Assembly: GCF_000981445.1 (NCBI RefSeq)
Contig: NW_012237203.1
Coordinates: forward strand, 1 to 45,585
Direction of reading: 5' to 3'
Length of the DNA stretch: 45,585 nt
Source: Babesia bigemina
Taxonomy: Eukaryota
The position numbers and the translations under genes were made by a program. Positions 1,890-36,704 of the stretch are shown here, piece by piece (the stretch's first letter is position 1; every line of letters begins with the position of its first letter). Under the pieces are notes generated by a model that saw nothing but the letters and a program-made list of their open reading frames with translations, did not search any database and was not told the DNA's origin.

Positions 1890-1912
1890 TAAATACCACT
1901 TAGCCCACCACT

Positions 1913-2865: not shown

Positions 2866-2869
2866 CAAC

Positions 2870-8873: not shown

Positions 8874-11800
8874 GGATGTAGAGTGGGTTAAGGAGCGATG
8901 TAGAGTGGGTTAGGGAGCGATGTAGAGTGGGTTAAGGGAGCGATGTAGTGTGGGTTAGGGAGCGATGTAGAGTGGGTTAGGGGCGATGTAGAGTGGATAA
9001 GGGGCGATGCAGAGTGGGTTAAGGAGCGATGTGGAGTGGGTTAGGGAGCGATGTAGAGTGGGTTAGGGAGCGATGAAGAGTGGGTAAGGGGCGATGTGGA
9101 GTGGGTAAAGGGGCGATGTAGAGTGGATAAGGGGCGATGTGGAGTGGGTAAAGGGGCGATGAAGAGTGGGTTAGGGAGCGATGTAGAGTGGGTTAGGGAG
9201 CGATGAAGAGTGGATAAAGGGGCGATGTAGAGTGGATAAAGGGGCGATGTGAAGTGGGTTAGGGAGCGATGAAGAGTGGATAAAGGGGCGATGTAGAGTG
9301 GATAAAGGAGCGATGTAGAGTGGGTTAGGGAGCGATGAAGAGTGGATAAAGGGGCGATGTAGAGTGGATAAAGGAGCGATGTAGAGTGGATTAGAAAGCG
9401 ATGTAGAGTGGGTAAGGGAGCGATGTAGAGTGGATAAAGGGGCGATGTAGAGTGGATAAGGGAGCGATGTAGAGTGGGTAAAGAAGCGATGTAGAGTCGG
9501 TAAAGGGGCGATGTAGAGTGGATGAAGGGGCGATGTAGAGTGGATAAAGGAGCGATGTAGAGTGGGTTAGGGAGCGATGTGGAGTGGGTTAGGGAGCGAT
9601 GTGGAGTGGTTTAAGGGGCGATGTAGAGTGGGTTAGGGAGCGATGTGGAGTGGATTAGGGAGCGATGTAGAGTGGATAAGGGAGCGATGTGGAGTGGGTT
9701 AGGGAGCGATGTGGAGTGGTTTAAGGGGCGATGTAGAGTGGGTAAGGGAGCGATGTGGAGTGGATTAGGGAGCGATGTAGAGTGGGTAAAGGGGCGATGT
9801 AGAGTGGATAAGGGAGCGATGTAGAGTGGGTAAAGAAGCGATGTAGAGTCGGTAAAGGGGCGATGTAGAGTGGATGAAGGGGCGATGTAGAGTGGATAAA
9901 GGAGCGATGTAGAGTGGGTTAGGGAGCGATGTGGAGTGGGTTAGGGAGCGATGTGGAGTGGTTTAAGGGGCGATGTAGAGTGGGTTAGGGAGCGATGTGG
10001 AGTGGATTAGGGAGCGATGTAGAGTGGATAAGGGAGCGATGTGGAGTGGGTTAGGGAGCGATGTGGAGTGGTTTAAGGGGCGATGTGGAGTGGGTTAGGG
10101 AGCGATGTGGAGTGGGTAAAGGAGCGATGTAGAGTGGATGAAGCGGCGATGTAGAGTGGGTTAGGGAGCGATGTAGAGTGGATAAAGGGGCGATGTAGAG
10201 TGGATAAAGGGGCGATGTAGAGTGGGTTAAGGAGCGATGTAGAGTGGGTTAAGGGGCGATGTAGAGCGGATAAAGGGGCGATGTAGAGTGGGTTAAGGGG
10301 CGATGTAGAGTGGATAAAAAGGCGATGTGGAGTGGGTTAGGGAGCGATGAAGAGTGGATTAAGGAGCGATGTAGAGTGGGTTAGGGAGCGATGTGGAGTG
10401 GGTAAAGGGGCGATGTGGAGTGGGTAAAGGGGCGATGTGGAGTGGATAAGGGGCGATGTGGAGTGGATAAAGGAGCGATGTAGAGTGGATAAAGGGGCGA
10501 TGTAGAGTGGATAAGGGAGCGATGTAGAGTGGATAAAGGGGCGGTGAAGAGTGGGTTAAGGAGCGATGTGGAGTGGATAAAGGGGCGATGTAGAGTGGGT
10601 TAGGGAGCGATGTAGAGTGGGTTAAGGAGCGATGTAGAGTGGGTTAGGGAGCGATGTAGAGTGGACAAAGGGGCGATGTAGAGTGGGTTAGGGAGCGATG
10701 TAGAGTGGATAAAGGAGCGATGTAGAGTGGATAAAGGGGCGATGTAGAGTGGGTTAGGGAGCGATGTGGAGTGGATAAGGGAGCGATGAAGAGTGGGTAA
10801 AGGGGCGATGTAGAGTGGATAAAGGGGCGATGTGGAGTGGATAAAGGGGCGATGTAGAGTGGGTTAGGGAGCGATGTAGAGTGGATTAGGGAGCGATGTA
10901 GAGTGGGTTAAGGAGCGATGTGGAGTGGATTAGGGAGCGATGTAGAGTGGATAAGGGGCGATGTAGAGTGGGTTAGGGAGCGATGTAGAGTGGGTAAAGG
11001 GGCGATGTAGAGTGGGTAAAGGGGCGATGTAGAGTGGGTTAGGGAGCGATGTAGAGTGGATAAAGGGGCGATGTAGAGTGGGTTAAGGAGCGATGTGGAG
11101 TGGGTAAAGGGGCGATGTAGAGTGGATAGAGGAGCGATGTGGAGTGGGTTAGGGAGCGATGTAGAGTGGATAAGGGGCGATGTAGAGTGGGTAAAGGGCG
11201 ATGTAGAGTGGATAAAGGGGCGATGTAGAGTGGGTTAAGGGGCGATGTAGAGTGGATAAAGGGGCGATGTAGAGTGGGTTAAGGGGCGATGTAGAGTGGG
11301 TTAAGGGGCGATGTGGAGTGGGTAAAGGGGCGATGTGGAGTTGGTAAAGGGGCGATGTGGAGTGGATAAGGGGCGATGTGGAGTGGATAAAGGAGCGATG
11401 TAGAGTGGATAAAGGGGCGATGTAGAGTGGATAAGGGAGCGATGTAGAGTGGATAAAGGGGCGGTGAAGAGTGGGTTAAGGAGCGATGTGGAGTGGATAA
11501 AGGGGCGATGTAGAGTGGATAAAGGGGCGATGTAGAGTGGGTTAGGGAGCGATGTAGAGTGGGTTAGGGAGCGATGTAGAGTGGGTTAGGGAGCGATGTA
11601 GAGTGGATAAGGGGCGATGTAGAGTGGATAAAGGGGCGATGTAGAGTGGATAAGGGGCGATGTAGAGTGGATAAGGGAGCGATGTAGAGTGGGTTAAGAG
11701 GCGATGTAGAGTGGGTAAAAGGGCGATGTAGAGTGGGTTAAGGGGCGATGTAGGGTGGATAAGGGGCGATGTAGAGTGGGTTAAGGGGCGATGTAGAGTG

Positions 11801-12045
11801 GGTAAAGGGGCGATGGAGAGTGGGTTAAGGGGCGATGGAGAGTGGGTTAAGGGGCGATGGAGAGTGGGTTAAGGGGCGATGTCGAGTGGATAAAGGGGCG
11901 ATGTGGAGTGGATAAGGAGCGATGTAGAGTGGGTTAAGGGGCGATGTAGAGTGGTTAAAGGGGCGATGTAGAGTGGATAAGGAGCGATGTAGAGTGGGTT
12001 AAGGGGCGATGTAGAGTGGTTAAAGGGGCGATGTAGAGTGGATGA
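8874..12045. repeat. 22-bp minisatellite array 2 (~3.2 kb)
   Basis: Same unit as array 1, with internal block duplications. Confidence 0.97.
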
Positions 12046-12091
12046 TAAATACCACTTTAGTCACCACTTAGGTCAGGTGCTTGGTCACCAC

Positions 12092-12291
12092 TGTCATCGC
12101 TGTAGTAACCATGTCATCGCTGCCGTAACCATGTCATCGCTGCCGTGACCATGTCACCGCTGCCGTGACCATGTCATCGCTGCCGTGACCAGTCATCGCT
12201 GCCGTGACCATTTCATCGCTGCCGTGTCCATGTCATCGCTGCCGTAACCATGTCATCGCTGCCGTGACCATGTCACCGCTGCCGTGACCAT
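12092..12291. repeat. 20-bp minisatellite CATGTCATCGCTGCCGTGAC (~10 copies)
   Basis: Direct inspection. Confidence 0.92.
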
Positions 12292-12294
12292 AAC

Positions 12295-12555
12295 TTGGTA
12301 ATCACGTTGGTCAGCACATTGGTCAGCACTTTGGTCAGCACCTTGGTCAGCACATAGGCCACCACTTTGGTCGTGGCATTGGTCAACACTTTGGTCATGG
12401 CATTGGTCAGCACGTTGGTCATGGCATTGGTCAGCACTTTGGTCATCACCTTGGTCACCACTCTGGTCACCACGTTGGTCATCACTTTGGTCAGCACTTT
12501 GGTCATGGCATTGGTCACCACTCTGGTCATGGCATTGGTCAGCACGTTGGTCACC
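12295..12555. repeat. 12-bp TTGGTCA-core repeat
   Basis: Direct inspection. Confidence 0.9.
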
Positions 12556-12678: not shown

Positions 12679-12840
12679 TTAGCTGTAGAATGCGATGCAG
12701 AACGGTATCTTGCGTACGAGGAAATCGCGGATGTTGCGGCCCACCGGGAAGCGGAAGATGCACAGGTCGAGCAGGATGATGGCGACGATGATGGCAACGA
12801 TGACGGCGGCGATGGCGGAGTAGGGAGGGTCATGGTCACC
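12679..12840 (-). pseudogene. Orphan transmembrane-plus-tail coding fragment without start codon
   Basis: A frame not in the ORF track reads GDHDPPYSAIAAVIVAIIVAIILLDLCIFRFPVGRNIRDFLVRKIPFCIAFYS*, i.e. a clear hydrophobic helix followed by a basic tail. TGA lies immediately upstream. Confidence 0.6.
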
Positions 12841-12923
12841 TCACTGCTCATGTGATTTGTCATCAACGCAATCACTACTCTGTCTACAACATTACATGTC
12901 AGTGGCCAGTTCGGTTATTGTGA

Positions 12924-13058
12924 CTAGCTGCGCAGTAGATACCGCACCCTGTGGAACGGCCGAATGCGGAAGTAGATCATGACGCAGATGACGACGATGA
13001 TGAAAGCGACGGAGGCGATGATGTAAGGGGCGGGGGAGGTAGTCACCTCGCTGCTCAT
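12924..13058 (-). pseudogene. Duplicate of the TM/tail of the Cys-rich gene; forms a 44-aa mini-ORF
   Basis: Reads MSSEVTTSPAPYIIASVAFIIVVICVMIYFRIRPFHRVRYLLRS*, a copy of the 3' end of 13129-13599. Confidence 0.6.
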
Positions 13059-13128
13059 GCGATTGATCATCAACGCAATCATTACTGTCTATAACATTAG
13101 ATGTCAGTTGCCAGTTAGATGATTGTAA

Positions 13129-13599
13129 TCAGCTGCGCAGTAGATACCGCACCCTGTGGAACGGCCGGATGCGGAAGTAGATCATGGCGCAGATGACGAC
13201 GATGATGAGGGCGACGGGGGTGATGATGTAAGGGAGGGGATTAAAATTGGATGACGTAGAGTCATCGGTAGAAGATGCTCGAAGAGAGACGCTGTCAGAG
13301 AGCTGTTGAGTGGAGATTTGAGACAGAGCGCCGGGGGCAGAAGCAACAAACCGTTCACCGGTGGAAGTACGAACATAGACAGCAGGGCGTTTTGCCACAC
13401 AACAGTAACATTGACAGCTGGTGTCACATTTTTGACATCTCGAATGATCGCACAGCCATGCTCCACTCATGCGCGAAATTCGGAAACTGGCACATAGACG
13501 ACAATATTTGTTACATCCCCTACAACACCATGAACAGCATTTACAGTCACGCTTTGTACAGCTCTTGCCACACGTACACGGAGGAGTCCAATCACTCAT
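13129..13599 (-). CDS. Small Cys-rich protein with C-terminal TM anchor (156 aa), unknown function
   Basis: ATG at 13599 (MSDWTPPCTCGK). It has 18 Cys in the first ~67 aa, a Ser-rich linker, TM PYIITPVALIIVVICAMIYF and tail RIRPFHRVRYLLRS. The paralog at 28257-28730 keeps all 18 Cys while other residues diverge. Confidence 0.8.
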   Translation of the reverse strand: MSDWTPPCTCGKSCTKRDCKCCSWCCRGCNKYCRLCASFRISRMSGAWLCDHSRCQKCDTSCQCYCCVAKRPAVYVRTSTGERFVASAPGALSQISTQQLSDSVSLRASSTDDSTSSNFNPLPYIITPVALIIVVICAMIYFRIRPFHRVRYLLRS

Positions 13600-13606
13600 C
13601 TTCCCA

Positions 13607-14443
13607 CTCCCAGTCCCCTCAACCTGCAAACTTATCAATCACCTAGCAACGCACTCACCAACTGCAACACTTACACTGCCGCTCCCAGTCCCCTCAACTG
13701 CGAACATATCAATCACTTAAGCAGCACTCACCAACTGCAACACTACCACTGCCGCTCCCAGTCCCCTCAACCTGCAAACATATCAATCACCTAAGCAAGC
13801 ACTCACCAACTGCAACACTTACACTGCCGCTCCCACTCCCCTCAACCTGCAAACATATCAATCACCTAAGCAAGCACTCACCAACTGCAACACTTACACT
13901 GCCGCTCCCACTCCCCTCAACCTGCAAACATATCAATCACCTAAGCAAGCACTCACCAACTGCAACACTACCACTGCCGCTCCCAGTCCCCTCAACCTGC
14001 AAACATATCAATGACCTAAGCAGCACTCACCAACTGCAACACGTACACTGCCGCTCCCAGTCCCCTCAATCTACAAACATGTCAATCACTTCATCAAGCA
14101 CTCACCAACTGCAACACGTACTACTGCGGCTACCACTCCCCTCAACCTGCAAACTTATCAATCACCTAGCAACGCACTCACCAACTGCAACACTACCACT
14201 GCCGCGCCCAGTCCCCTCAACCTGCAAACATGTCAATCACTCAAGCAGCACTCACCAACTGCAACACTACCACTGCCGCGCCCAGTCCCCTCAACCTGCG
14301 AACATATCAATCACCAAGCAACGCACTCACCAACTGCAACACTACCACTGCCGCGCCCAGTCCCCTCAGCCTGCGAACATATCAATCACCTAACTAACGC
14401 ACTCACCAACTGCAACACTACCACTGCCGCGCCCAGTCCCCTC
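13607..14443 (-). repeat. ~74-bp tandem repeat, 11 units, each resembling an exon plus a ~34-38 nt GT-AG intron
   Basis: The minus-strand unit is GTTGAGGGGACTGGGAGCGGCAGTGGTAGTGTTGCAGTTG | GTGAGTGCTGCTTAGGTGATTGATATGTTTGCAG. Only 2 units occur at the paralogous position 28749-28905. Confidence 0.85.
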
Positions 14444-14956
14444 ATGAACACTTACCCTCACCCCTGTATCCCCCCAGCCCAGGCCACCGACACCCACGCT
14501 GCCCAGGATACCACAGCTCCACCTGACGCGACGCATGTGATTATCACCAACTGTCACTTTAAATTATTCACTATTCGCAACGCCATAAAAATTGCAGCGA
14601 CCCGTGCGCTCAACTCCCACAGTGCAGCAGCACCGTGCTACGAGCCGCGGTATCGGCGCCATACTGGCGGAGCGTGTCGGCTACGTGCCTAAATGTGATA
14701 TTAACAATCGCTACATCGCTGCCTATAAACGCCATTTAACCAGGCCAACGCGGATTACGCCACCCTGCCAGTGACTCGCAACACACTACTTGGGTCACCC
14801 GCCGCGGCCCTCACGACCGCCTACGTTAGCAACCAATCACCCAGCCTCACGTGACACCAACTCACTGGGCAACGCGGACACCTCTCACAGTCAACGCGTT
14901 ACTCAACGCACCAGGCAATCAACGTGCTACAACACCCACCATATTACGGTTCATCC
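14444..14956 (-). promoter_or_regulatory. Conserved non-repetitive block upstream of the Cys-rich gene (putative promoter/5' leader)
   Basis: Colinear and highly similar to 28905-29420. It contains CCAATCA and CACGTG (14848-14853) in both copies. Function is inferred from position only. Confidence 0.45.
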
Positions 14957-15611: not shown

Positions 15612-17117
15612 TCACGGTTGCAGGTACGATATCTTGGCAAGCCTTCCGACTTGCGCTGCCGCCAACAATGATTGCGCCGTTATCTTGTGCGATGACGGTG
15701 ATCGTAAGTGTGAGCGTATGTGGAGCACATCCAGTCTGCCAACCATGACGCAGATGAGGTAGAAGAGGGACAGTGACCAGAGTGCGACGGTCATCCACAG
15801 GAATGGTGCGCGGATGGTGAACAGGAATTCGTCGCACTCTTTGAACAATGCTGTGAAATGCGTCGATTGCAGTACATTTTTCAGTTGTATGTAAAAATGA
15901 TGGCAATAACTCTTACTGGTATCGCCGTGTAATTTAGTCGAATCGCGAAAAGTGAATCCGTAACTGTAAAAAGTACTACTTACACCGCGGCATTCGACAA
16001 TTCCGCGACACTGACAGTTCTCCATGCCGTGCTTACCGCGAGAACATTTCGTTCCATGAGTACAACGACTGCATCCCCAGTCGCGGCAGGAAATATTGCC
16101 GAATGAGTCCAGCAGTGATTTCAGGCAATCGTACAATGCCAATGGTAAATAGAGAGCCCATGAGAAATACAGTTCTGAATGCTTCTCGGCGAGATAGGTA
16201 TATGAATCGTCGCATAGAGCTCTGAGATAAGGAGCGCAATGAATCTTATCGCTACTAGCAAACGTACAATTCGTCTCCGCGGAGAGCGTAGACAGGTCGG
16301 CTTCTGAGTATGTTTTATGCTCTTCGAGACGGTGGCTGTGATATGCATCGCGAAGCGCATTCGTGAAGTCACTCGTGTCCTTGTACAGTTCGATGGACAT
16401 CTCCTTGGTAGCCGTTTCAAATGCTGTTTTGACTGCATTGCCATTGACGCCTTTACTATTGTCCAGCATACGCACCAATGTCGAAACAAACTGGTAGTGT
16501 TCTGGTAATGTAGACGGCGGTTTGGGCATCAAGCAAAGCAACGATGAATATTGCACATTGACGAAGAATTTAGTCAGCGCTTTGCATAGGTCCTCACCTG
16601 TCTTCATACCACCGGAAAAGCCACGGAAGCCGAGAGGCGTCAGGCAAGGTTGGCCGGGGAGAACCTTTGGACACGTCGCACATTTGGCCTTGCAACCGAT
16701 GCTGCTTACCTGGTGAGGCAAGTGGCCGGTAAGGCAATCGGACAAATAAGACTGAAGTGGCGATGTTGGTTGGCACTTTGCCAGGCACGTTGGTTGACCA
16801 TCTGCTTGGCACGCTGCTTTGCCCGTTGAGTGATCATTACACTGCGATTTAGATGACTCTACGCCTTTACCGTACCAACAGTCGGACCAACCGCGATGTT
16901 CGGCAGTCAACTTACACTGGCTGTGCAAGAAGTTGAGCGATGGCAATAAACTACGGAGGATGTCAAGCAGCATTTGTAGGCAGTCGTAGCCTTTGGACGG
17001 GTAGTGTAGATTTAGTGAATTACTGCAAAAGTCGACGGCGTACATGGAGTACGCGTCTCCTGTGCCGAGGATTGCAGTCAGCAGATCGTATGATCTCAGA
17101 CATAGGTGGCGCACTGC
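15612..17117 (-). pseudogene. ves1: 3' part of interrupted ves1-like gene (ves-B)
   Basis: AVRHLCLRSYDLL...TM...HLRSPSSHKITAQSLLAAAQVGRLAKISYLQP aligns with AVKRLCSRSHDIL... of ves-C. It joins in frame to 21454-25530 once the element and one TSD copy are removed. Confidence 0.88.
17105..17117. repeat. Target-site duplication, left copy (GGTGGCGCACTGC)
   Basis: Identical 13-mer at 21441-21453. The flanking bases differ on both sides. Confidence 0.93.
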
Positions 17118-17203
17118 TCTTGTTAAATTAAGTTATCTCATCTTATAGTGTGCTATGTGGCTACGTGCCTAGGGCCGGTTTTCGTGTTTGCGGGGCTAAC
17201 GCC

Positions 17204-18280
17204 TCACGCTGAAACCGGTTGCGGGATCCACGCCGGTCCATTGCCGGACGTCACTGGTGCCATCCATGCGGGCATCCATCCAGTTTGGGCTTGAGGGTCT
17301 TCTACGGAATCGTAGTCTTCTTTCGGCTTCATATCCCTCATCACTATTTTATGTGTTTCTTGGATCACTACCCTTTGTATGTGGGCTTCCATGCGATCCG
17401 ATATGCCCAGGTCCCGTCTATACTTGCTGTGTTCTTTCGTCACTATTCCCTCCCACGTCATAACGTAGGGGATAACCCTGATCTTGGTGTGCTGGTTAAA
17501 CTGTCGCGCCTTGAGGTCCTCAATAAGGTCTTCATACTTCTGCTTCTTGAACTTCTCCGTATCCACTAGGTTGTCTTGATTGGTGATTCCTATCTCCACG
17601 ATGGTTATGGTGTTCCTCCGCCGATCCGCCAGGATGATGTCTGGCCTGTTGTATTCCTTAGTCTTCTGAGTCTTGACCGTCTTGTCGTACGCGATCCATC
17701 CGTATTTTCCATGTACTTCACTCTCGATCTTGTGGGCGTCTATCTTCTCCTTGGGTAGTCCTATTTGCCTCCCGAGTACTGAGTGGACCCGTTTTGCTAC
17801 CTCGTTGTGCCTCTTCGTATATTCTAGGTGTAGTAGTTTCTGGCACTTCGTCGCGAGGTGATCCACGTTCTTGCCGTTGTTGCATCTTGTGCATTTCTTG
17901 GACGAAGACATCCATTGCAGATTCCTATCCTGGACTTCCGCTACGTTCGCTTCTTCTTCCGGAGTGAGTATTCCACACGTCAGGTACAAGGACGACGCCT
18001 CAATGTCCAGCTTGGGGTCCTCACGCTTGGCATACAGGACCTTATGAGTTGATTTTACGTGCATTCTGTTGTACAGCCATTTGTTTTGGGCCACCCTGAG
18101 GTCCCTGAGGCTCTTGTCCGTAGTGTCCTCCATTCCGAATTCCATTCCATATCTTCCTTCCAGGTGCATCTTGATGTGAGATATGTGCGCGTATGTGTCG
18201 CGAAAATGCTGCATGATCGCAGCTCTCCTGGTTGACGTCACCTCGTCTGCTGAAAGCGTCAACCACAGTCGTAGCAGCAT
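17204..18280 (-). CDS. C-terminal part of retrotransposon ORF: CCHC knuckle plus PD-(D/E)xK restriction-like endonuclease
   Basis: Motifs CTRCNNGKNVDHLATKC, YTKRHNEVAKRVH, NRPDIIL, IVEIGIT and KKQKYEDL occur in the canonical RLE order. Separated from the RT part by frameshifts. Confidence 0.88.
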   Translation of the reverse strand: MLLRLWLTLSADEVTSTRRAAIMQHFRDTYAHISHIKMHLEGRYGMEFGMEDTTDKSLRDLRVAQNKWLYNRMHVKSTHKVLYAKREDPKLDIEASSLYLTCGILTPEEEANVAEVQDRNLQWMSSSKKCTRCNNGKNVDHLATKCQKLLHLEYTKRHNEVAKRVHSVLGRQIGLPKEKIDAHKIESEVHGKYGWIAYDKTVKTQKTKEYNRPDIILADRRRNTITIVEIGITNQDNLVDTEKFKKQKYEDLIEDLKARQFNQHTKIRVIPYVMTWEGIVTKEHSKYRRDLGISDRMEAHIQRVVIQETHKIVMRDMKPKEDYDSVEDPQAQTGWMPAWMAPVTSGNGPAWIPQPVSA

Positions 18281-18375
18281 GCTTCCGCTCTAAATACCAT
18301 GCTGTGGAGCCCTCTCCCCATCTCTTTCCGGGGGAGGTAGAGCCTCTGTGTGTTCGCCCACTTCTTGTGTCCGCC

Positions 18376-21245
18376 TGCGCGTTAATTATTCTCCGTACTG
18401 CCAGGTCGATCTTGTCGACATGCGTGATGTCCATAGGGATCACGCCGATGTAGTAGTTGATGACGCTGAGGGCGTACTGGTTGATGGCCATCGAGAGGTT
18501 TTTCCCCGACAGCTTTGACGCAGCCAGTAGCTCCGTTCTCCTGCATATCTCCTGTAGTATTATGTCGAACATTCCGTCGCTTGTCAGTGAGTTTGAAGTC
18601 TCTGTGACTCCCAAGTACTTGTACGTTTCCGGGCCTTCCATCTGCTTGGCGATGCTGGCGCACGCCTCCGTGTTGGTTGCCGACTTGTCGCGGTTGATCC
18701 TGAGTCCTATGTCGTTGAAGAACTTCTCCACTTCTCGGCCCATTCCTCTCATCGTACTTTCCTCGTGGGCGAAGAACTTGAGGTCGTCAATATAGAGAAA
18801 GTGGTTTGTGGCGAATATCCTGCCGCCGGTCACGCTTAACTCCACCTTGGGGAAGATGCGAGTCAGGTGCCTGCTCAGCGGGTCCAAGCACAGCACGAAG
18901 AGAAGGGGCGATAGGCTGTCGCCTTGGAGAATGCCCCTCTCCACTTTCTTGTGCATGATTGTGTTCTTGTTCCACCGTATCTCTATATTCCACCTCTTGA
19001 TCGTCTGCTTGATGAAGTTTGATAACCACCCTGGTAGGTTAAGGTTGTCGATAACCCTTGCCAGGTACGCGTGGTCGATTGAGTCGTACGCCTTCATGAC
19101 GTCGACCCACGTTGCAAGTAACTTCCCCTTGTGCTTCTCGTTGAGCGCGATGTTCGCTAACGCGTGCTCCTTTGCACCCTGTACGTTGCTCCTCGTGCCC
19201 ATCTGGTTCTCGGACCGTAGTCCCCTGCCATCGACTTCTCGCTTAAGCGTCTCCGTTGCACAGCGGGTAGTTAGCTTGTATAGGTTGGACATGCATGTGA
19301 TAGGCCTGTACTGTGCGGCGGACTTTGGTTTCTTGTTCTTCGGTAGTAGGTACGTGATCCCACAGTAGAACCAGTCGTCCTGCACTTTGCCTTGCTGGCA
19401 TGCCTCCTCTACTAGCCTGTAAATGACTCTGTGAAGGGACGTGAGCCATTTAATGTAGTAGTTGTAGATCCCATCCGCACCGGGCGACTTCCAGTCTCGC
19501 AATTTCTTGACGATCGTGACGAATTCCTCGTATGTGGGAAAGCCTGCCTTGTTCTCTGCCGGTGGTCTTTCGACCAGATATCCTTCACCGTTGTGCGGTG
19601 CGTTTGGCTTCACCCACATTTGCGCCCAGTACTCTATCATCATCCCCTCGTTTATCGCCGACTCGTCCGCGTCCTGCTTGTTCTCCAGTGTCCTGTAGAA
19701 GTGTCCCGTGTAGAGCTCGAACATGCGGTTGTCGTTGTACAACTCCTTCTTGAACTTGGCGTTCTTGAGTTTGTCCTGCTCCTTTTGGAGCTCCTCTTGA
19801 GTCCTGCTGATCACGTATGACAGTTCCTGCGGCTTGTCCGCGATCATGTTGTACTTGTCCATTTGGCGATAAACGCGTTTCCTATCCTCCTTCTCCAGGG
19901 GGACCTTCTGCTTGTATTTCAGAAGTAATGCTCCTATCTCCTCCAGCTCCTTGATCCTCCTCTCAGCTGCCTCCTTCTTTCCCGAGGACGACGATGGTTT
20001 TGCGCTGTACTTGTCGTAGCAGTCCTGTGCCGTCTGATACAAGACGGCTAGCATCCCCATGTCAGTGACTGGGTTGTGCTTCACGTAGTTGTGGACCACT
20101 AGATCCAGCGACCTTATCGCCGTGAAGTCGAGGGAGTCCATGGTGTGTCTTTTGTTCTTTACTGTCCTAATCACACCAGGCTCCCTCAACCTCTGTGCCA
20201 TGATCCGGTCGAAATCCTCCTGCAGGGCGTTGTATGAGTCGACGTCGTGCAGCGATGCTATTTCTCCAACGTCCGTCGGTTGGCTCCGCGCTGCTTTGGC
20301 GACTACCTGTCTTGCCATCTGCTCCACCTCCTTGTGGGTCTTGTGGAATTCGAAATGCTCGTTGGCATATTCCGCGAGGACTTTCCATCCTCCTCGTGGC
20401 ATCCTCTGATACTTCGTCACTACTGCCTTGTAGACGTCCGGTACCCAATGACACCATGGTCCATCGATCTGACGCATGACACAGTGCAGGAACTGTAACT
20501 TGGCATTCAGCCTAGCGTAGTTCGGCGGCATTTGTGGCGTGTTCCCGGCCCGTTCAGCCTGCGGGGCGTGCCCTTCGGGTGCCCTCGGCAACGCAGCCGT
20601 CTCAGTGAGCGCCACCTCACTGGCGGTGCCCGGTGCTATACTGTTGTTTGATTCTCTCACAGGCCCGACTTGCTCAGGTTCCTCTTCGTCCACGTCCATA
20701 AAGTCATCCGACGATATGGAATACACGGTCGGAGAGCGGCAGCCACCGTTTCCGACAACCTCCCCTGCCGGTGGCTGCAGGGTAGACAGTGTCTGCACAC
20801 ACACGGGTGCGCGTTCCGAGGAACTCGGCCCGGCGTTGCAAACCACGACAGGCGGCGTTTGAGCCGTGTTTCCTGTCTTTTTGGCCTTCCGGTTGTTACC
20901 CTTTTGGCCCTGGGGACCGCCGTTCCGCGCTTTGTTTCCAGCGCCCTTCACAGCCGGAGTGGTTCCGGGCTGGTGTCGTTTCCGGCTTGCCTGCGGGATT
21001 GGCCGGCTTTCGCCGCCACGGCCGGCCCCCTTCGAATTTGTGGGTTTACCTTTAGGGCCCTGAACACCGCTTTGTACCGGTTTTCTGGATTCATGCCGCC
21101 TTTCGGGTTGCCGACACTCTCGGCGCCCCACGGTGGCAAGCGGAGCATCGATGTCCATCCCATCGGGGACGTCCACGTCAATAACCATGAGGTCTCCGTC
21201 CTCATCGATTTGACTGCTCAGCTGCACTTCTTGTGAGCTCTCCAT
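18376..21245 (-). CDS. N-terminal and reverse transcriptase part of retrotransposon ORF
   Basis: ATG at 21245. Motifs KSPGADGI, YRPITCMSNLYKL, NQMG, WVDVMKAYDSIDH, RGILQGDSLSPLLF, HFLYIDDLK, GLRINRDKS and YKYLG are non-LTR RT motifs in order. Meaningful sequence leaves this frame at ~18376. Confidence 0.93.
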
Positions 21246-21440
21246 TGGTACCTTGTTCGTCTATCCAGCGCGCCTGTGTGGCCGCCTTTCGCCTCGCGAT
21301 GTTGCCGCTTTAATTCCGCACTTTTGGCCTTCAATACACCCCCCAGTGACATCGGAAAATTTTCCTTTCTGTGATAAACCCGAGAAAACACGTTTCTCAA
21401 AGTTTCCCCCAAAATCACAGAAGATTCCAACTCCAACTCC

Positions 21441-21453
21441 GGTGGCGCACTGC
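21441..21453. repeat. Target-site duplication, right copy (GGTGGCGCACTGC)
   Basis: Identical to 17105-17117. Confidence 0.93.
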
Positions 21454-24400
21454 CTTTACGCTATTGTCATACGTGATGTTACTCGGGTACGCGTTCAGGC
21501 ATAATGCATCTGGCGTGACTAGCGTGAACTCATGGTCCTCGCCGGCCTCTGTCGTTTGCTTCTTTGGATCTTCGAATAAGTCACTCATCGTGTCACGCAA
21601 CAACGCATCATACACAGAATTGCACGGCAACCCACACAACCAGCACAGCATTTCGAACACGGAGGATGGCTGTCGCTTCGCCGCGAAGGTGGACTGGTGA
21701 CAGACTTCATAATATGTTTCAAGGCAGTTGTGTAAAGTTTTAAGTGGGCCAGTGTCTTTCTCAGCATCATGATGTTTGTAGACACGGCCATCGTCATTCT
21801 TAACGAGGCTTTTGTAGACATGCCAGCCTAACATACCATCTCCGTGACGCAAGTGACCGTCTTGTTTGTCCTTGGATACGACGTATCCGTTGTTGCCGAG
21901 GAATTGTCCAATTGGTGTCGATTGATGTATCTTGTCGGACCTCCACGTGGTAACGGAGTACTTTCTTACTGTGTTCAGCACATTGTATGACGTCGAAACT
22001 ACGGTCAAGCAGACCTTACTTAACTTGGTTCCGTACGCTGTTAGTTTATCTTTTTCGACGAGCTCAGCACCAAACCTCTCACTGTCGTAGGTCGAGATGT
22101 ACGCATTGTTGAGCTCCGTTGCCGAAGTCGTGAAACCGTTCTTCAGAGCATTGAGAAGCGAAGGGGTATTCCCTTCACCATATAATGAAGGCTTCAATTC
22201 ACTGAGCGTTACTTTCAGCGCCGATAGATTTCGAGAAAACTCGTGATTGAAGTACTCCGAAGTGACAAGATCTCCGAACAACTTAGCCAGCGCGTCACGT
22301 GTTGGCTTAATTTTTTCATAGTCCGTTTTGAAGTCCGGCTGCTTCTCTAGATCATGCAAAAACCTATTTAGGCTTCCAAAGAACTTTGCTGCCGCCTGAC
22401 TCATTGGTGATTTTTCTTGCGCAACGGGCTTAGGATTTATGTCTTTGATGGTCTTGATTGACTTTTCGTGCGTTACGAAGTGCTTCTCAAATTTCTTCAT
22501 GAACCCCTTGTAACCGATGTCCAGATCGTCGGTGATTTCCTTAGGTAGAAGCTCCAACTCCTTCTTGGTTTTTTCCGCAAACTCTAGCAGCATGTCTTGC
22601 ACCGAAGTGACGTAGTTCTTGTTGATCTTGGTGATGAGATCCTTCTGGGCTTCTTCGACGTTTGAGCTGACAAAAGATCCGATCGCTGTGATCGTAGCCT
22701 TACCGGTAGGTTCAGCGCTACTTAGGAAGTAGGTAGCCTTTTTGATGACGTCATTCAACTCTTTGTTACCTAGCTCACTGATTTCATATCTGATTCTATT
22801 AATGCTATCCTTCACATGTTCAGCCTTGTTGAAGAACTTGTCTCTCAAACTGATCAGATTCCCCTTCGCAAATTCGCCGTCACTCTTAACTAACTGACAG
22901 AGGTCATGAAGAGTGGCAGTGACTTTCTCCAATTCCTTTACTGCGTATTCCTTTTCACTGTCGATTTTATTCAAAGCAGACTTAACTTTCTCCCTAATAT
23001 CTTTGATCTTCTCCGGAAGGGTGCCTGCTAGCTGGTCAATGTCACCGCTTAACTTGCCTGGTGTTTGGTCGACGCACGTTGTGTAACCAGTGAATATACT
23101 AGCATCCATCTTCACTTTTGCAGGATCACTTGCTGGATCGCTGTCATCCTTTTTTAACTTCTCCCCAAGGACTCTCGTCACCCCCTCGATCGCGTTGTCG
23201 ACGGCGGCGGCGAACGTTTCTTCTCCATTTGTTTGCCCTTTTTCGTTAACGCCCAATGCCTTCTCCAATTTTCGAACTATCTCTTTTGCTGTTTTATAAG
23301 CGTTATCCACATTCTTAAAACTGCAATCTTTTAAAAGCTTGTCAATTTTTTCAGCGCCACCACGCGCACGTCCGATGAGTAAATTAAATGTAGCTTCCAC
23401 TGTTATTTTAAGATAGTATTCATAAGCTGTTTTGAATGTAGCTGAATCTTGATATCCTAATTTGAGATGTACTTGGTGAGTGAAAGATTCAACATCGCTA
23501 GCTTTCGTTTGTTTTTCAAGCGCCTCAGCCAGCTGCACGAGAAATGACGATGTGTATTTTAGATTCGTATCTATATCGCTGTTGGAGTCTTTCGGCGTCG
23601 GCGGTATTTTAATGCGTTTGACAATGCTAGTAGTAATCTCATTCGTTAGCGCCTTTATAACGTCTTGCAATTTTTCACCATTATTTTTTACATACCAATA
23701 TAGATACGTTCTCACCGGTTCTTTTTCAGCTAGCGTCGACGTCCACATCTTCAAAACCTTCTCCCCGAAAGTATTCTGATTGAACTCATCCAAATAACCC
23801 CTCACTTTGTACACAATTGCCGCCAGACCTGATGGTCTTGTTACATCTTCTCCTGCTTTGCCCCGTATGCCTGCAACTTCACTTTTTATCTGCTGAATAA
23901 CTTTTTCAATCTTCTTATCTTTTTCGGTTACTGCGCTGCCTGGTCTTTCATTTACCGTCTCGTACAACTTCCCAATCGCATCCTTAATCCCCGTCACCTG
24001 CCCCTCCACCGCGTGCTTCACCTTAAACAAATCCCCTTTAAGCGCGTCGTCCATGGATTTCACCTGCGCAAGGGCCTTAGTAACTTCTTCTTTGACGAAT
24101 CTACCAGCGTCCGATCCGGCTCCGTGCAGCATCAGTACGGCAGTGCTAATCTCCCTTACAGCGCCCTCAATTCTATACGGCTTCATACCTGAATCGCCTT
24201 CGTTAACCTCTTTCAGTAGTGATTCAACCTTCTCCAAAGCCGACGTTATAACTATCGTGACTGAGTCAATCCACGTTTGCAGCTCACTTACGTACCCCTT
24301 TAGCTTGCCACTAATGATGTTAAGCTGCTCTAAGATTTTCTGCACCCTCGACTTTAAGTCATTGACAAGTTTATCTATATCTTCACGAACTTTGTTATTT

Positions 24401-25578
24401 ATGCAGTTTTCGACGTTGGAAAATACAGATTTAATCTTTGCTGTCGTTTCCTGCAACTCATTTTGCCGGCTCTCTGCCATTCTATTCATTCGGTCGGTCT
24501 CATACTTAACACTCTTAATGGAATTCTTAACTCTAAGTGATAAGTCATTATTAAGATCATTGATCGCGTTTTTAATTATATTATCGGTATTGTCAATGTT
24601 CAACTGAGTATTAAATTTCGCTGCGTGCTTCTGACATTGTTGAAGCAGCTTGTCGATCTTCTCTACGGCGCTGCTGACCTGGAAGTCCTTGGCTTTAGAA
24701 AGTGTTTCTTGCGGTAGTATCTCGGTTACACTTCTCTTGAACCCTTCATTCACCTGCGAAAGTATGAGAGTCATCGGTTCACTCACCTTTTTATTACTGC
24801 CAGCAACACTCTCATTATACCCCCGCACCCCTTTAACCACACTTTCAATCGCAGCATTAAAACCTTTTTTACCGGCGTGTTTTTTCTCGTTAAGTATGTT
24901 AATTGCTTCAGTAATTTGCTCATTATGCTGCCCTAAATGCTCTTTGATGTTACTGAGAACACCACTCAAAAACGCCACCACCCCGTCACACAGCCTGTCA
25001 AGGTCAGAGTAGACAATCCCAGTGCCGTCGTAGCCTTTGGAAGTTGGATTGAAGCCGAGGAAAGTTTGAAGTCCATCACATAAATTAACTAAGAGATTTT
25101 TAGGCTCATTTTGTTGTTTATTAGAATTAGTCAAAGATCCACAAAGCTTCTCCACTTTCTCCAAAGCCTCCAACTTGGACTGCAATTTGGCTAGCTCAGC
25201 AGAGGAAGAGGGGGAAGGAGAGTTATGATTAAGGTTATTAGGCTTATTAAGTTGCGTAATTTGATAAGTAATTTCGGCAATTTTTTTAGACACTTCAAGT
25301 TGAAGTTGACCAATTACACCGGTGTCATCAGCCTTGCCAGCAGAGTTAACAGACTCAGAAAGCTTAGTAACATGAGAGGAGTAATCATTTTTAAGCTCTT
25401 CATGACTGTTAATTTTAGCGATAATAGCATACATAACGGCTTTCTTAACACTCTCACTTTGACCAACAAATCCTCCAAGTTGACCAGCAAGGTGACCAAG
25501 GCTAATGAGCTTGGAGTCAATGTCATCCAAGGCTCTTCTAGTAGCATCGTCACTAAGAGAATGGTCAGTATCAACAAG
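21441..25578 (-). pseudogene. ves1: 5' part of interrupted ves1-like gene (ves-B)
   Basis: Has the LCDGLQTFLGF...GIVYSDLDRLCDGV block and EMLCWLCGLP. Homology stops at NSVKAVRH, and translation runs 8 codons into the element (RSWSWNLL*). The frame opens after TAA at 25579-25581. Confidence 0.88.
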
Positions 25579-25766
25579 TTATTATAATGGTTTATGGAGG
25601 TCATAGCGTTAATAAGACGAAGTAATTCGAGAGATTTGAAGATAGGGTGAACATGATGGGACTTGGCAGTGGACGAGGTGGAAGATGGGAAGTGAAGGGT
25701 GACAAGGCACAAGTTATTGCTATGGTTTATAGAGGTCATAGCGGTATTATGGCGAGGTAATTCAAG

Positions 25767-27756
25767 GGATGTAGAGTGGGTTAGGGAGCGATGAGGAGAA
25801 GGTTAAGGGGCGATGAGGAGAAGGTTAAGGGGCGATGTAGAGTGGATAAAGGGGCGATGTAGAGTGGGTTAAGGAGCGATGTAGAGTGGGTTAGGGAGCG
25901 ATGTAGAGTGGGTTAAGGGGCGATTAGAGGAGGTTAGGGAGCGATGTAGAGTGGGTTAGGGAGCGATGTAGAGTGGATAAAGGGGCGATGTAGAGTGGGT
26001 TAGGGAGCGATGTAGAGTGGGTTAGGGAGCGATGTAGAGTGGATAAAGGAGCGATGTAGAGTGGATAAAGGAGCGATGTAGAGTGGATAAAGGAGCGATG
26101 TGGAGTGGGTAAAGGGGCGATGTAGAGTGGATAAAGGGGCGATGTAGAGTGGATAAGGGGCGATGTAGAGTGGGTTAGGGAGCGATGTAGAGTGGGTTAG
26201 GGAGCGATGTAGAGTGGATTAGGGAGCGATGTAGAGTGGTTAAGGGGCGATGTAGAGTGGATAAAGGGGCGATGTGGAGTGGGTTAGGGGCGATGTAGAG
26301 TGGATAAAGGAGCGATGTGGAGTGGGTAAAGGGGCGATGTGGAGTGGATAAAGGGGCGATGTGGAGTGGGTTAGGGAGCGATGTAAGGTGGGTTAGGGAG
26401 CGATGTAAGGTGGATAAAGGAGCGATGTGGAGTGGATAAAGGGGCGATGTGGAGTGGGTTAGGGAGCGATGTGGAGTGGATAAAGGAGCGATGTAGAGTG
26501 GGTAAGGGAGCGATGAGGAGTGGATAAAGGAGCGATGTGGAGTGGGTAAAGGGGCGATGTAGAGTGGATAAAGGAGCGATGCGGAGTGGATTAGGGAGCG
26601 ATGTAGAGTGGGTTAAGGAGCGATGTGGAGTGGATAAAGGGGCGATGTAGAGTGGATAAAGGGGCGATGTAGAGTGGGTTAGGGAGCGATGTGGAGTGGG
26701 CTAGGGAGCGATATAGAGTGGGTAGAGGAGCGATGAAGAGTGGGTTAAGGGGCGATGTATAGTGGAGTAAGGGGCGATGTGGAGTGGATAAAGGGGCGAT
26801 GTAAGGTGGGTTAGGGAGCTATGTAGAGTGGGTTAGGGAGCGATGTGGAGTGGATAAGGGAGCGATGTAGAGTGGGTTAAGGGGCGATGTAGAGTGGATA
26901 AAGGAGCGATGTAGAGTGGGTTAGGAGCGATGTGGAGTGGATAAAGGGGCGATGTAGAGTGGATAAAGGGGCGATGTAGAGTGGGTTAGGGAGCGATGTG
27001 GAGTGGGCTAGGGAGCGATATAGAGTGGGTAGAGGAGCGATGAAGAGTGGGTTAAGGGGCGATGTATAGTGGAGTAAGGGGCGATGTGGAGTGGATAAAG
27101 GGGCGATGTAAGGTGGGTTAGGGAGCTATGTAGAGTGGGTTAGGGAGCGATGTGGAGTGGATAAGGGAGCGATGTAGAGTGGGTTAAGGGGCGATGTAGA
27201 GTGGATAAAGGAGCGATGTAGAGTGGGTTAGGGAGCGATGTAGAGTGGGTAAAGGAGCGATGTAGAGTGGGTTAGGGAGCGATGTAGAGTGGGTTAGGGA
27301 GCGATGTAGAGTGGCTAAAGGAGCGATGTAGAGTGGATAAGGGAGCGATGTAGGGTGGGTAAAGGGGCGATGTAGAGTGGATAAGGGGCGATGTTGACTG
27401 GGTTAGGGAGCGATGTAGAGTGGATAAAGGGGCGATGTAGAGTGGATTAGGGAGCGATGTGGAGTGGATAAAGGGGCGATGTAGAGTGGATAAGGGAGCG
27501 ATGTAGAGTGGATTAAGGGGCGATGTAGAGTGGGTTAGGGAGCGATGTAGAGTGGATAAAGGGGCGATGTAGAGTGGATAAAGGGGCGATGAGGAGTGGG
27601 TTAAGGAGCGGTGTAGAGTGGATAAAGGGGCGATGTAGAGTGGATAAAGGGGCGATGAGGAGTGGGTTAAGGAGCGATGTAGGGTGGGTTAGGGAGCGAT
27701 GTAGAGTGGGTTAAGGGGCGGTGTAGAGTGTGTTAGGGAGCGATGTAGAGTGGATA
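25767..27756. repeat. 22-bp minisatellite array 3 (~2.0 kb)
   Basis: Same unit as array 1. Confidence 0.97.
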
Positions 27757-27764
27757 ATAATCAC

Positions 27765-27980
27765 CACTTAGGTCAGGTGCTTGGTCAACACGTTGGTCAT
27801 GGCATTGGTCAACACGTTGGTCACCACTCTGGTCAGCACTTTGGTCATGGCATTGGTCAACACGTTGGTCAACACTTTGGGCAGCACATTGGTCAACACT
27901 TTGGTCAGCACTCTGGTCAGGTGATTGGTCAGCAGTTAGGTCATGGCATTGGTCAGGTGCTTGGTCATCTCACTGGTCAT
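27765..27980. repeat. 12-bp TTGGTCA-core repeat
   Basis: Direct inspection. No 20-bp array at this junction. Confidence 0.88.
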
Positions 27981-28050
27981 GTGATTCGCCATCAACGCAA
28001 TCATTACTGTCTACAACATTAGATGCCAGTTGCCAGTTAGGTGATTGCGA

Positions 28051-28172
28051 TCAGCTGCGCAGTAGATACCGCACCCTGTGGAACGGCCGGATGCGGAAGT
28101 AGACCATGACGCAGACGACGACGATGATGAGGGCCACGGGGGCGATGATGTAAGGGGCGGGGATATGGTCAC
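28051..28172 (-). pseudogene. Duplicate TM/tail fragment of the Cys-rich gene
   Basis: Reads GDHIPAPYIIAPVALIIVVVCVMVYFRIRPFHRVRYLLRS* with no in-frame start. Confidence 0.6.
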
Positions 28173-28256
28173 CTCACTGCTCATGTGATTGATCATCAAC
28201 GCAATGCTTACGTAGTCTAGCACATTAGATGCCAGTTGCCAGTTAGGTGATTGCGA

Positions 28257-28730
28257 TCAGCTGCGCAGTAGATACCGCACCCTGTGGAACGGCCGGATGC
28301 GGAAGTAGATCATGACGCAGATGACGAGGAAGATGAGGGCGACGGCGGCGATGATGTAAGGGAGGACGTTTGTAGATGCTGAATCGGAGGCGATGGCAGC
28401 TGGGTGGTGATTGTCGGAGCGCTGCTGAACATGGGAGGAGGTGGAGGAACCGAGGGCACGGGAGGAAGCAAGGGACTTGGCGGCACGCTGGGCACGAAGA
28501 GAAGTATCATGGCGTTTAGTCCTACAACAGAAACATTGGCATTGTTCTTTGTCACAGTCTCCACATATTGTATCATTGCAATCCCCGAATCCCGTCATGC
28601 GCAAACCAGACAAATGGAGACATGGAAGACATCTCCTTGGCTTACATTTTGCACAACACCAGGGACAGCAATTACACACCACACGCTCTCGACACTGTTT
28701 GCCACAGTTACAGTCCAAGAGTCCGCTCAT
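28257..28730 (-). CDS. Small Cys-rich protein with C-terminal TM anchor (157 aa), paralog of 13129-13599
   Basis: ATG start, 18 Cys in the same spacing pattern, TM PYIIAAVALIFLVICVMIYF and an identical RIRPFHRVRYLLRS tail. Confidence 0.8.
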   Translation of the reverse strand: MSGLLDCNCGKQCRERVVCNCCPWCCAKCKPRRCLPCLHLSGLRMTGFGDCNDTICGDCDKEQCQCFCCRTKRHDTSLRAQRAAKSLASSRALGSSTSSHVQQRSDNHHPAAIASDSASTNVLPYIIAAVALIFLVICVMIYFRIRPFHRVRYLLRS

Positions 28731-28748
28731 CTTCCCGCTCCCCTCCCA

Positions 28749-28905
28749 GTCCCCTCAACCTGCGAACATATCAATCACTCAAGCATCGCACTCACCAACT
28801 GCAACACGTACCACTGCCGCTCCCAGTCCACTCAACCTGCGAACATATCAATCACCTAAGCAGCACTCACCAACTGCAACACTACCACTGCCGCTCCCAG
28901 TACCC
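28749..28905 (-). repeat. Two units of the ~74-bp exon/intron-like repeat
   Basis: Same unit as 13607-14443. Confidence 0.8.
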
Positions 28906-29420
28906 TCATCAACACGCACCCTCACTCCTGTATCCCCCCAGCCCAGGCCACCGACACCCACGCTGCCCAGGATACCACGGCCACGCCTGACGCGACGCAT
29001 GTTATAAGCAACTAACAATCAATTATAATCATTATTCACTCGATGTCTATAAAATTGCAGCGAACCCCGTGCGCTCGACTCCCACAGTGCAGCAGCACCG
29101 TGCTACGAGACGCGGTATCGGCGCCATGCTGGCGGAGCGTGTCGGCTACGTGCCTAAATGTGATACTAACGATCGCTACATTGGCGCCTATAAATGCCAT
29201 TTAACCGGGCCAACGCGGATTACGCCACCGTGCCAGTGACTCGCAACACACGACTTCGGTCACCCGCCGCGGCCTTCACGGCCGCCTACGTTAGCGACCA
29301 ATCACCCAGCCTCACGTGACACTCACTCAATGGGCAACGCGGACGCCTCTCACAGTCAACGCATAACTCAACGCACCAGACAATTAACGTGCCACAACAC
29401 CCACCAAATTACGGTTAATC
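28905..29420 (-). promoter_or_regulatory. Second copy of conserved upstream block
   Basis: Paralogous to 14444-14956. Confidence 0.45.
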
Positions 29421-34816: not shown

Positions 34817-36704
34817 GGGATGTAGAGTAGATAAGGGAGCGATGTAGAGTGGATAAAGGGGCGATGTGGAGTGTGTTAGGGAGCGATGTAGGGTGGATTA
34901 GGGAGCGATGTAGAGTGGGTTAGGGAGCGATGTGGAGTGGATAAGGGGCGATGTAGAGTGGGTTAAGGGGCGATGTAGAGTGGGTTAGGGAGCGATGTGG
35001 AGTGGGTTAGGGAGCGATGTGGAGTGGGTTAGGGAGCGATGTGGAGTGGGTTAGGGAGCGATGTAGAGTGGATCAAGGGGCGGTGTAGAGTGGGTAAAGG
35101 GGCGATGTCGAGTGGGTTAGGGGGCGATGTAGAGTGGCTTAGGGAGCGATGTAGGGTGGGTTAAGGGGCGATGTAGAGTGGATAAAGGGGCGATGTAGAG
35201 TGGATAAAGGGGCGATGTAGAGTGGGTTAAGGAGCGATGTAGAGTGGGTAAAGGAGCGATGTAGAGTGGGTTAAGGAGCGATGTAGAGTGGTTTAGGGAG
35301 CGATGTAGAGTGGGTAAAGGGGCGATGTAGAGTGGATAAAGGGGCGATGTAGAGTGGGTTAAGGGGCGATGTAGAGTGGATAAAGGGGCGATGTAGGGTG
35401 GGTTAAGGAGCGATGTAGAGTGGATAAAGGAGCGATGTAGAGTGGGTTAGGGAGCGATGTAGAGTGGGTTAAGGGGCGATGTGGAGTGGGTTAAGGGGCG
35501 ATGTAGAGTGGATAGAGGAGCGATGTGGAGTGGGTTAGGGAGCGATGTAGAGTGGGTTAAGGAGCGATGTAGAGTGGATAAGGGAGCGATGTAGAGTGGA
35601 TAAAGGAGCGATGTAGAGTGGATAAGGGGCGATGTGGAGTGGATAGAGGAGCGATGTAGAGTGGGTTAGGGAGCGATGTAGAGTGGGTTAAGGGGCGATG
35701 TAGAGTGGGTTAGGGAGCGATGTAGAGTGGATTAGGGAGCGATGTAGAGTGGATAAAGGAGCGATGTACAGTGGGTTAGGGAGCGATGTAGAGTGGGTTA
35801 AGGGGCGATGTGGAGTGGGTTAAGGGGCGATGTAGAGTGGGTTAAGGGGCGATGTAGAGTGGGTAAAGGGGCGATGAAGGGTGGATAAAGGGGCGATGTA
35901 GAGTGGATAAAGGGGCGATGTGGAGTGGGTTAAGGGGCGATGTAGATGTGAGTGGGTAAGGGGCGATGTGGAGTGGATTAGGGGGCGATGTAGAGTGGGT
36001 TAAGGGGCGATGTAGAGTGGGTTAGGGAGCGATGTAGAGTGGGTTAAGGAGCGATGAAGGGTGGGTAAAGGGGCGATGTAGAGTGGATAAAGGGGCGATG
36101 TAGAGTGGGTAAAGGGGCGATGAGGAGTGGGTTAGGGAGCGATGTAGAGTGGATAAAGGGGCGATGAAGAGTGGATAAGGGGCGATGTAGAGTGGATTAG
36201 GGAGCGATGTAGAGTGGATAAAAGAGCGACGCAGAGTGGATAAAGGGGCGATGTGGAGTGGATAAAGGGGCGATGAAGAGTGGATTAGGGAGCGATGTAG
36301 AGTAGGTTAAGGGGCGATGAAGAGTGGATTAGGGAGCGATGTAGAGTGGGTAAAGGGGCGATGTAGAGTGGATTAGGGAGCGATGTAGAGTGGGTTAGGG
36401 AGCGATGTAGAGTGGATAAGGGGCGATGTGGAGTGGGTTACGGAGCGATGTAGAGTGGGTTAGGGAGCGATGTGGAGTGGGTTAGGGAGCGATGTGGAGT
36501 GGGTTAGGGAGCGATGTGGAGTGGGTTAGGGAGCGATGTAGAGTGGATCAAGGGGCGGTGTAGAGTGGGTAAAGGGGCGATGTCGAGTGGGTTAGGGGGC
36601 GATGTAGAGTGGCTTAGGGAGCGATGTAGGGTGGGTTAAGGGGCGATGTAGAGTGGATAAAGGGGCGATGTAGAGTGGATAAAGGGGCGATGAAGAGTGG
36701 ATAA
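34817..36704. repeat. 22-bp minisatellite array 4 (~1.9 kb)
   Basis: Same unit as array 1. Confidence 0.97.

What the first reader, a model, noticed from the sequence alone, without database searches (positions are those of the whole stretch)
18280..18380. Hidden third-frame segment: the two retroelement ORFs are one ~1347-aa ORF broken by two 1-nt deletions
Seen: between the track's two ORFs a third minus frame (18375->18283) reads GGHKKWANTQRLYLPRKEMGRGLHSMVFRAE, containing the conserved post-RT motif RLYLPRKExGRGL (18345-18307). Adding one base at ~18376 and one at ~18281 gives a continuous frame 21245->17204 with no other stops. Inference: these are either long-read indel errors (the element is then intact and potentially active) or the first mutations of a very young copy.
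Basis: partly seen in the sequence, partly recalled or inferred. Interest (0 to 1): 0.7.

Follow-up and report, generated by a model that had tools for sequence, protein, structure and literature searches.

The report
Young retrotransposon inside Babesia antigen gene
A young jumping gene has split a surface-antigen gene of the cattle parasite Babesia bigemina; its two frameshifts are missing from every sister copy that covers them, so they are likely sequencing errors in this one copy and not a special decoding trick.

Summary
Observation confirmed. The third frame (18375-18283) is the true coding frame: it matches 100 of 118 homologs, the other two frames 0. Four near-identical B. bigemina sister proteins are uninterrupted and exactly 1347 aa, and 5 of 5 runs that cover the site carry both missing bases. 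Programmed recoding or splicing is therefore refuted for the family. The breaks are private to this copy and cluster with three private substitutions in 140 nt, so base-call error is likelier (about 0.7) than real damage (about 0.28); no read from this exact locus was available. The element is a 4323-bp single-ORF non-LTR retrotransposon (reverse transcriptase, CCHC knuckle, restriction-like endonuclease; R2-like fold). It sits in a ves1-family antigen gene between 13-bp target-site duplications, and another sample holds the empty site. LINE-like elements in this species are already in print (PMC9141347); I did not find the intact structure, the insertion polymorphism or the ves link there. 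The frameshift oddity is ordinary; the recently mobile family is of moderate interest.

The parts
17118..21440 (-). Full-length non-LTR retrotransposon, 4323 bp, single ORF in the family
   Evidence: X1 contig covers 17122-21434 with 10 other letters and 2 gaps
21441..21453 (.). Target-site duplication, 5' side of the element (13 bp, exact)
   Evidence: empty-site contig has 13 letters that fit both sides
17105..17117 (.). Target-site duplication, 3' side of the element (13 bp, exact)
21246..21440 (-). 5' untranslated region, 195 nt; its first hexamer (21435-21440) is doubled relative to the X1/X3 copy
   Evidence: no Rfam match, fold z -0.56
18378..21245 (-). ORF piece 1 (aa 1-956): low-complexity N-terminus, predicted helical domains, reverse transcriptase
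18603..19328 (-). Reverse transcriptase domain PF00078 (aa 640-881), YIDD at 18794-18783
   Evidence: (E 1.2e-30)
18373..18377 (-). Break 1: one base missing plus two substitutions, private to this copy
18419..18419 (-). Private non-synonymous substitution (aa 943); the window's residue occurs in 0 of 90 aligned homologs
18283..18375 (-). Third-frame segment (aa 958-988) with the conserved post-RT motif; the real coding frame
   Evidence: X5's two changes here are synonymous in this frame
18280..18281 (-). Break 2: one base missing, private to this copy
17204..18280 (-). ORF piece 2 (aa 990-1347 and stop): zinc knuckle and endonuclease
17843..17893 (-). CCHC zinc knuckle (C-x2-C-x7-H-x4-C, aa 1119-1135)
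17534..17647 (-). Restriction-like endonuclease motifs (R-P-D ... E, K-x2-K-Y)
   Evidence: (P, D, K, K, Y invariant in 26 rows)
17118..17203 (-). 3' untranslated region, 86 nt, A/T-rich end, no poly(A) run
21441..25739 (-). 5' part of the interrupted ves1-family surface-antigen gene
15612..17117 (-). 3' part of the same ves1-family gene
   Evidence: 93% to the uninterrupted paralog P0150

Best explanation
This is one copy of a single-ORF, R2-like non-LTR retrotransposon of Babesia bigemina inserted in a ves1-family antigen gene, and its two frameshifts are likely base-call errors in this assembled copy, so the copy is likely intact. Shown: single 1347-aa ORF in sister copies, RT + CCHC + endonuclease motifs, 13-bp target-site duplication, empty site in another sample, breaks private to this copy. 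Inferred: the family moves by target-primed reverse transcription and moved recently; the errors would come from a short poorly covered stretch that could not be corrected because near-identical copies compete for the same reads.
For: Four distinct 1347-aa sister proteins differ from each other at 1-4 residues; one spans 4044 bp, so no intron. 12 of 14 sister proteins cross break 1 in frame, 11 of 14 cross break 2, 0 of 14 hold wrong-frame peptide. 5 of 5 covering runs, 4 samples, carry both bases at full depth. Against P0124 the window differs only at aa 943, 957-958 and 989. Against X1, all 5 coding differences outside 18280-18419 are synonymous, while those inside are 2 gaps and 3 substitutions that change the protein. 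Three independent damaging events within 140 nt of a 4044-nt ORF: p about 0.004 if uniform. Fold of a natural sister protein: pLDDT 85.8, best matches R2 proteins (E 3.6e-28; Z 31.8, rmsd 5.1, 741 aligned).
Against: No laid contig joins the element to this ves flank, so no read from this locus was seen; X1/X3 is another insertion. Logan contigs drop rare variants. If all differences to X1 are counted and the complex change is counted once, the clustering is not significant (p 0.26). The window's other long ORFs, about 22 kb, show no frameshift, so the contig is accurate elsewhere. No unusually stable hairpin explains a hard-to-read spot. Really damaged copies exist: X4 contigs show other 1-nt and 4-nt losses, and two gene models break off at aa 948.
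Confidence: 0.7

Rival explanations
1. The changes are real: this copy was damaged at or soon after insertion by one local mutational event (error-prone reverse transcription or repair) and is dead, because its first ORF would run 111 residues out of frame and lose the endonuclease.
For: Contig otherwise free of frameshifts; damaged copies exist in the family; two gene models stop at aa 948, 9 codons before break 1; a single repair event can give clustered changes (general knowledge).
Against: No other amino-acid change in 1347 positions against P0124, so ordinary slow decay does not fit; three separate lesions 40-95 nt apart are hard to get from one event; no run shows any of them.
Confidence: 0.28
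2. Programmed frameshifting, splicing or editing restores the frame from a two-ORF arrangement.
For: Only the arrangement itself; the 18200-18400 RNA folds somewhat better than shuffles (z -2.49).
Against: 0 of 14 sister proteins and 0 of 5 covering runs share the arrangement; no slippery heptamer of the pattern searched near the breaks; the segment that would be skipped is conserved in 100 of 118 homologs; two shifts in 95 nt would be needed.
Confidence: 0.01
3. The element is contamination or a mis-join from another organism (its nearest named non-piroplasm relatives are microsporidian).
For: Microsporidian proteins at 38-50% identity among the best hits.
Against: Exact 13-bp duplication and colinear ves halves; empty-site contig; copies on 2.8-3.5 Mb B. 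bigemina contigs; a Babesia clade of 13 rows from four species with support 100.
Confidence: 0.01

Closest known systems
LINE-like elements of Babesia bigemina, B. ovata, B. divergens and Theileria equi (PMC9141347)
   Same: Same species; very likely the same family (0.97% of the B. bigemina assembly in that paper; three B. divergens elements classed 'LINE R2' by MGEScan).
   Different: In the passages and section 7 that I read there is no ORF structure, endonuclease type, target-site duplication, insertion polymorphism or ves link. I did not read its supplements.
R2 retrotransposon proteins (9NL2, 9NL3, 9DOU, 8GH6)
   Same: Single ORF; RT followed by CCHC and a PD-(D/E)xK-type endonuclease; best structural matches over model residues 212/319-1130.
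   Different: Only 15-16% identity; no N-terminal zinc-finger pattern; inserted in a protein gene, not in 28S rDNA; no ribozyme match in the 5' region.
RLE-encoding clades R4/Dong, NeSL/Utopia, HERO, CRE (PMC4640811)
   Same: RT + C-terminal zinc finger + RLE; target-site duplications occur in some.
   Different: Clade not determined: no reference elements were in my trees. That the post-RT motif and a 13-bp duplication resemble R4/Dong is recalled, not tested.
Microsporidian non-LTR elements (Hamiltosporidium, Vairimorpha, Pancytospora, Enteropsectra; families noted in PMC4202319)
   Same: Same motifs, collinear across the hidden segment, CCHC and RLE; 38-50% identity over RT.
   Different: Different host kingdom; Babesia copies form their own clade on a long stem.

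Membership tests
RLE-type non-LTR retrotransposon | Non-LTR reverse transcriptase with intact YxDD | tested here: met
RLE-type non-LTR retrotransposon | Single ORF carrying RT and C-terminal endonuclease | tested here: met
   met in sister copies; broken as assembled in this copy
RLE-type non-LTR retrotransposon | C-terminal CCHC knuckle and PD-(D/E)xK motifs | tested here: met
   motif patterns recalled, domain order as in PMC4640811
RLE-type non-LTR retrotransposon | No long terminal repeats; target-site duplication | tested here: met
RLE-type non-LTR retrotransposon | Target-primed reverse transcription activity | not testable with these tools
   inferred from fold and duplication
R2 clade (strict) | Insertion at the 28S rRNA gene site | tested here: not met
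   inserted in a ves1-family gene
R2 clade (strict) | N-terminal zinc finger(s) | tested here: not met
   no C2H2/CCHC-like pattern in aa 1-640 (pattern search only)
R4/Dong clade | RT phylogeny groups with R4 and Dong | not testable with these tools
   no reference sequences could be fetched; resemblance recalled only
Site-specific RLE elements | Shared target sequence at independent insertions | tested here: inconclusive
   four 3' flanks seen differ by eye and the two duplications differ; too few sites
Programmed recoding elements | Frameshifted arrangement conserved among copies | tested here: not met
   0 of 14 proteins, 0 of 5 runs
BbigVes1 (host gene) | Homology to annotated BbigVes1b over both halves, conserved C-terminus | tested here: met
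   both halves match P0164 (E 5e-34, 6e-68), named BbigVes1b in the supplement of PMC4066756; 1a/1b subtype not resolved

The most novel reading that the evidence does not exclude
B. bigemina carries a currently active R2-like retrotransposon family, transcribed in blood stages, that lands preferentially in ves antigen genes. It would knock out and reshuffle the antigenic-variation repertoire and supply the reverse transcriptase for the retro-origin of ves genes proposed in PMC4066756, and it may have entered piroplasms by exchange with microsporidia.
Probability: 0.2. Interest if true: 0.7.

Novelty: new member of a known kind. Interest (0 to 1): 0.35.

Why it matters
The flagged frameshifts matter only as an annotation fix: this is one gene, not two, and no recoding. 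The element around them matters more. Apicomplexa are poor in transposons, and the B. bigemina elements are in print only as 'LINE-like'. Here the family has at least 8 listed loci with a full 1347-aa ORF, near-identical copies, exact duplications and an empty-site allele, which is the signature of recent movement. If insertions favour ves genes, a mobile element takes part in immune-evasion gene turnover in a cattle pathogen, and insertion sites would be strain markers.

Tried and rejected
No genome is held for the window, so copies could not be counted at DNA level. No RNA holder listed. Rfam: one weak chance hit. 5' region not structured beyond shuffles. Hairpin as cause of a read error: windows at the breaks rank 38-149 of 212, rejected. 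Slippery heptamer: none. ESM Atlas on aa 240-420: best 0.85, unnamed, a lead only; a Myb-like role for the helices there is recalled and untested. Pfam VESA1_N does not hit the window's ves ORFs. One origin versus two for piroplasm elements: T. equi moves between trees and one clade is not rejected (p-AU 0.555); the microsporidia test did not finish and was not repeated, so horizontal transfer is unproven. Proteomics: the element-ves fusion model P0121 has 9 peptides, but I cannot tell from which part; 4 other element ids had no row. BBBOND_0001870 (1931-fold up in blood) could not be tied to this family. Earlier scan findings: none. PMC5660447: 0 occurrences of the RT terms.

Full report
1. 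Observation. The window shows two long minus-strand frames, 21260-18042 and 18289-17204. With X at each break the three pieces give 1347 residues. Over this stretch the third frame hits 100 of 118 homologs from outside B. bigemina; each of the other two frames hits 0 of 118.

2. Organism and family. A search with the RT region gave 903 proteins, of which the best 120 were listed; the top two are B. bigemina at 99-100%. Their two clusters hold 14 proteins. Four are distinct 1347-aa chains, listed under at least 8 accessions, that differ pairwise at 1-4 residues. 12 of 14 cross the first break in frame, 11 of 14 cross the second, none holds peptide from the wrong frames; the others end before or skip the site. 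One 1347-aa gene spans 4044 bp, so its model uses no intron. This sample is biased towards intact copies, as broken ones give other models.

3. Reads. Of 24 runs listed (9 holders) I laid 6, all as Logan contigs. Five cover the breaks (X1-X5, 4 samples). All five carry one more base at 18280/18281 and one at 18373/18374, at the full depth of the covering contig. None shows the window's form. None joins the element to this ves flank, so these are sister copies or other strains, not this locus. This refutes programmed recoding for the family but cannot by itself separate error from real damage.

4. Error or damage. Against P0124 the window differs only at aa 943, 957-958 and 989. Against the X1 contig there are 12 differences: 2 in the 5' region, 5 coding ones outside 18280-18419, all synonymous third positions, and 5 inside (2 gaps, 3 substitutions). 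The window's residue 943 is found in 0 of 90 aligned rows. X5's two changes inside the hidden segment are synonymous in the third frame. Three damaging events within 140 nt of 4044 have p about 0.004 under uniform decay; 5 of 12 within 140 nt, p 0.003; but counting the complex change once among all differences gives p 0.26. Against error: about 22 kb of ves ORFs in the window have no frameshift, no strong hairpin marks the site, and damaged copies do exist. The breaks are not in long homopolymers. I do not know the window's platform; the published reference for this species was capillary sequence polished with short reads (PMC4066756, passages), so errors other than long-read ones occur in public data of this kind. 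My odds: error 0.7, real damage 0.28, other 0.02.

5. What the element is. It spans 17118-21440 (4323 bp) between exact 13-bp repeats, with no terminal repeats. It has RT (PF00078, E 1.2e-30), a CCHC knuckle and restriction-like endonuclease motifs that are conserved in homologs. A natural sister protein (P0128, aa 183-1347) folds at pLDDT 85.8 and matches R2 proteins best (E 3.6e-28; Z 31.8, rmsd 5.1, 741 aligned; LINE-1 ORF2p within about 1.5 Z). It works like R2, by inference through target-primed reverse transcription, but fails two R2-clade features: no rDNA site and no N-terminal zinc-finger pattern. R4/Dong is my recalled guess and was not tested.

6. The host gene. The flanks are the two halves of one gene: they align to aa 4-1153 and 1150-1636 of a neighbour and to one uninterrupted paralog, P0150, at 97% over the searched region and 93% over the 3' half. 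Both match P0164, named BbigVes1b in a supplement of PMC4066756. One X2 contig skips exactly the element plus one repeat, so an empty site exists. Three gene models in three Babesia species fuse the element to ves-like sequence. This fits targeting, but also plain tolerance: ves1 has about 154 copies in this species (PMC4066756), four 3' flanks that I saw share no evident target, and fusions are a biased sample.

7. Expression. In the RNA-seq supplement of PMC9806345, 5 of 10 family ids that I looked up had rows, and a sixth was found by word; blood-stage raw counts were 23-640, and 5 of 6 were significantly higher in blood than in kinetes. Read-through from ves genes and multi-mapping are not excluded.

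8. Origin. In a tree of 118 of 123 rows (5 dropped for coverage under 72%), 13 Babesia rows form one clade with support 100. T. equi changes place between trees; a single piroplasm clade is not rejected (p-AU 0.555, 36 rows). Named neighbours are microsporidian, but most rows have unknown hosts and the root is arbitrary, so transfer is a lead only.

9. What is in print. PMC9141347 (passages and section 7; supplements not read) reports LINE-like elements in B. bigemina, B. ovata, B. divergens and T. equi. PMC10463595 (passages) notes an expanded RT cluster in B. caballi. PMC4640811 and PMC4202319 (passages) gave clade features and microsporidian background. PMC5660447 had no match to the RT terms. 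Eight searches listed no paper on intact structure, duplications, polymorphism or ves insertion; subscription papers and Repbase are not covered, and supplement file 1 of PMC4066756 could not be searched.

10. Verdict. The hidden frame is real and the one-ORF reading is right, but the breaks are a private defect of one copy, likely an artefact. The element is a new member of a known kind, in a family already noted in this species. Interest 0.35; the open point worth following is whether this recently mobile family is still active and favours ves genes.

Noticed in passing
window 17104-21441: A contig of run X2 joins 17104 to 21441 with 13 letters fitting both sides: the empty site of this ves gene or a very close paralog (one contig, depth 3.9).
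   Followed up: partly
window 21435-21440: The window copy has its first hexamer doubled; the X1/X3 copy starts at 21434 and has its own 11-nt string on both sides, a second, different duplication.
   Followed up: partly
P0121, P0148, P0005: Gene models in B. bigemina, B. ovata and B. caballi fuse the element to ves-like sequence, pointing to further insertions in ves genes. Fusions are a biased sample.
   Followed up: partly
P0122, P0130: Two sister gene models break off at exactly aa 948, 9 codons before break 1; possibly one internally deleted sub-lineage. Unexplained.
   Followed up: no
window 18583, 20780, 21026, 21165; 17737-17843: Other samples hold copies with 1-nt and 4-nt losses (X4) and a 105-nt skip (X2): decayed copies exist.
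   Followed up: no
P0058, P0136, P0141, P0143, P0144: Theileria equi holds five 1312-1314-aa members with RT, CCHC and RLE motifs; a second apparently intact family.
   Followed up: partly
one search hit list: Nearest named non-piroplasm relatives are microsporidian; some hits are filed under an octopus, a mite and bacterial MAGs, which may be contamination.
   Followed up: partly
window 17138-17186: X2 and X4 show variant 3' ends, one with short tandem repeats; a second subfamily is likely.
   Followed up: no
window 393-2991, 8875-12553, 25768-27983, 34819-37653, 43702-45582: The ves genes are tandem on the minus strand and separated by 22-bp, 20-bp and 12-bp tandem arrays in a repeated order.
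   Followed up: no
window 12835-14444 and 27962-28908: A duplicated block with a 205-bp repeat, a 75-bp repeat and a short cysteine-rich ORF ending in a hydrophobic stretch (13129-13638, 28257-28754).
   Followed up: no
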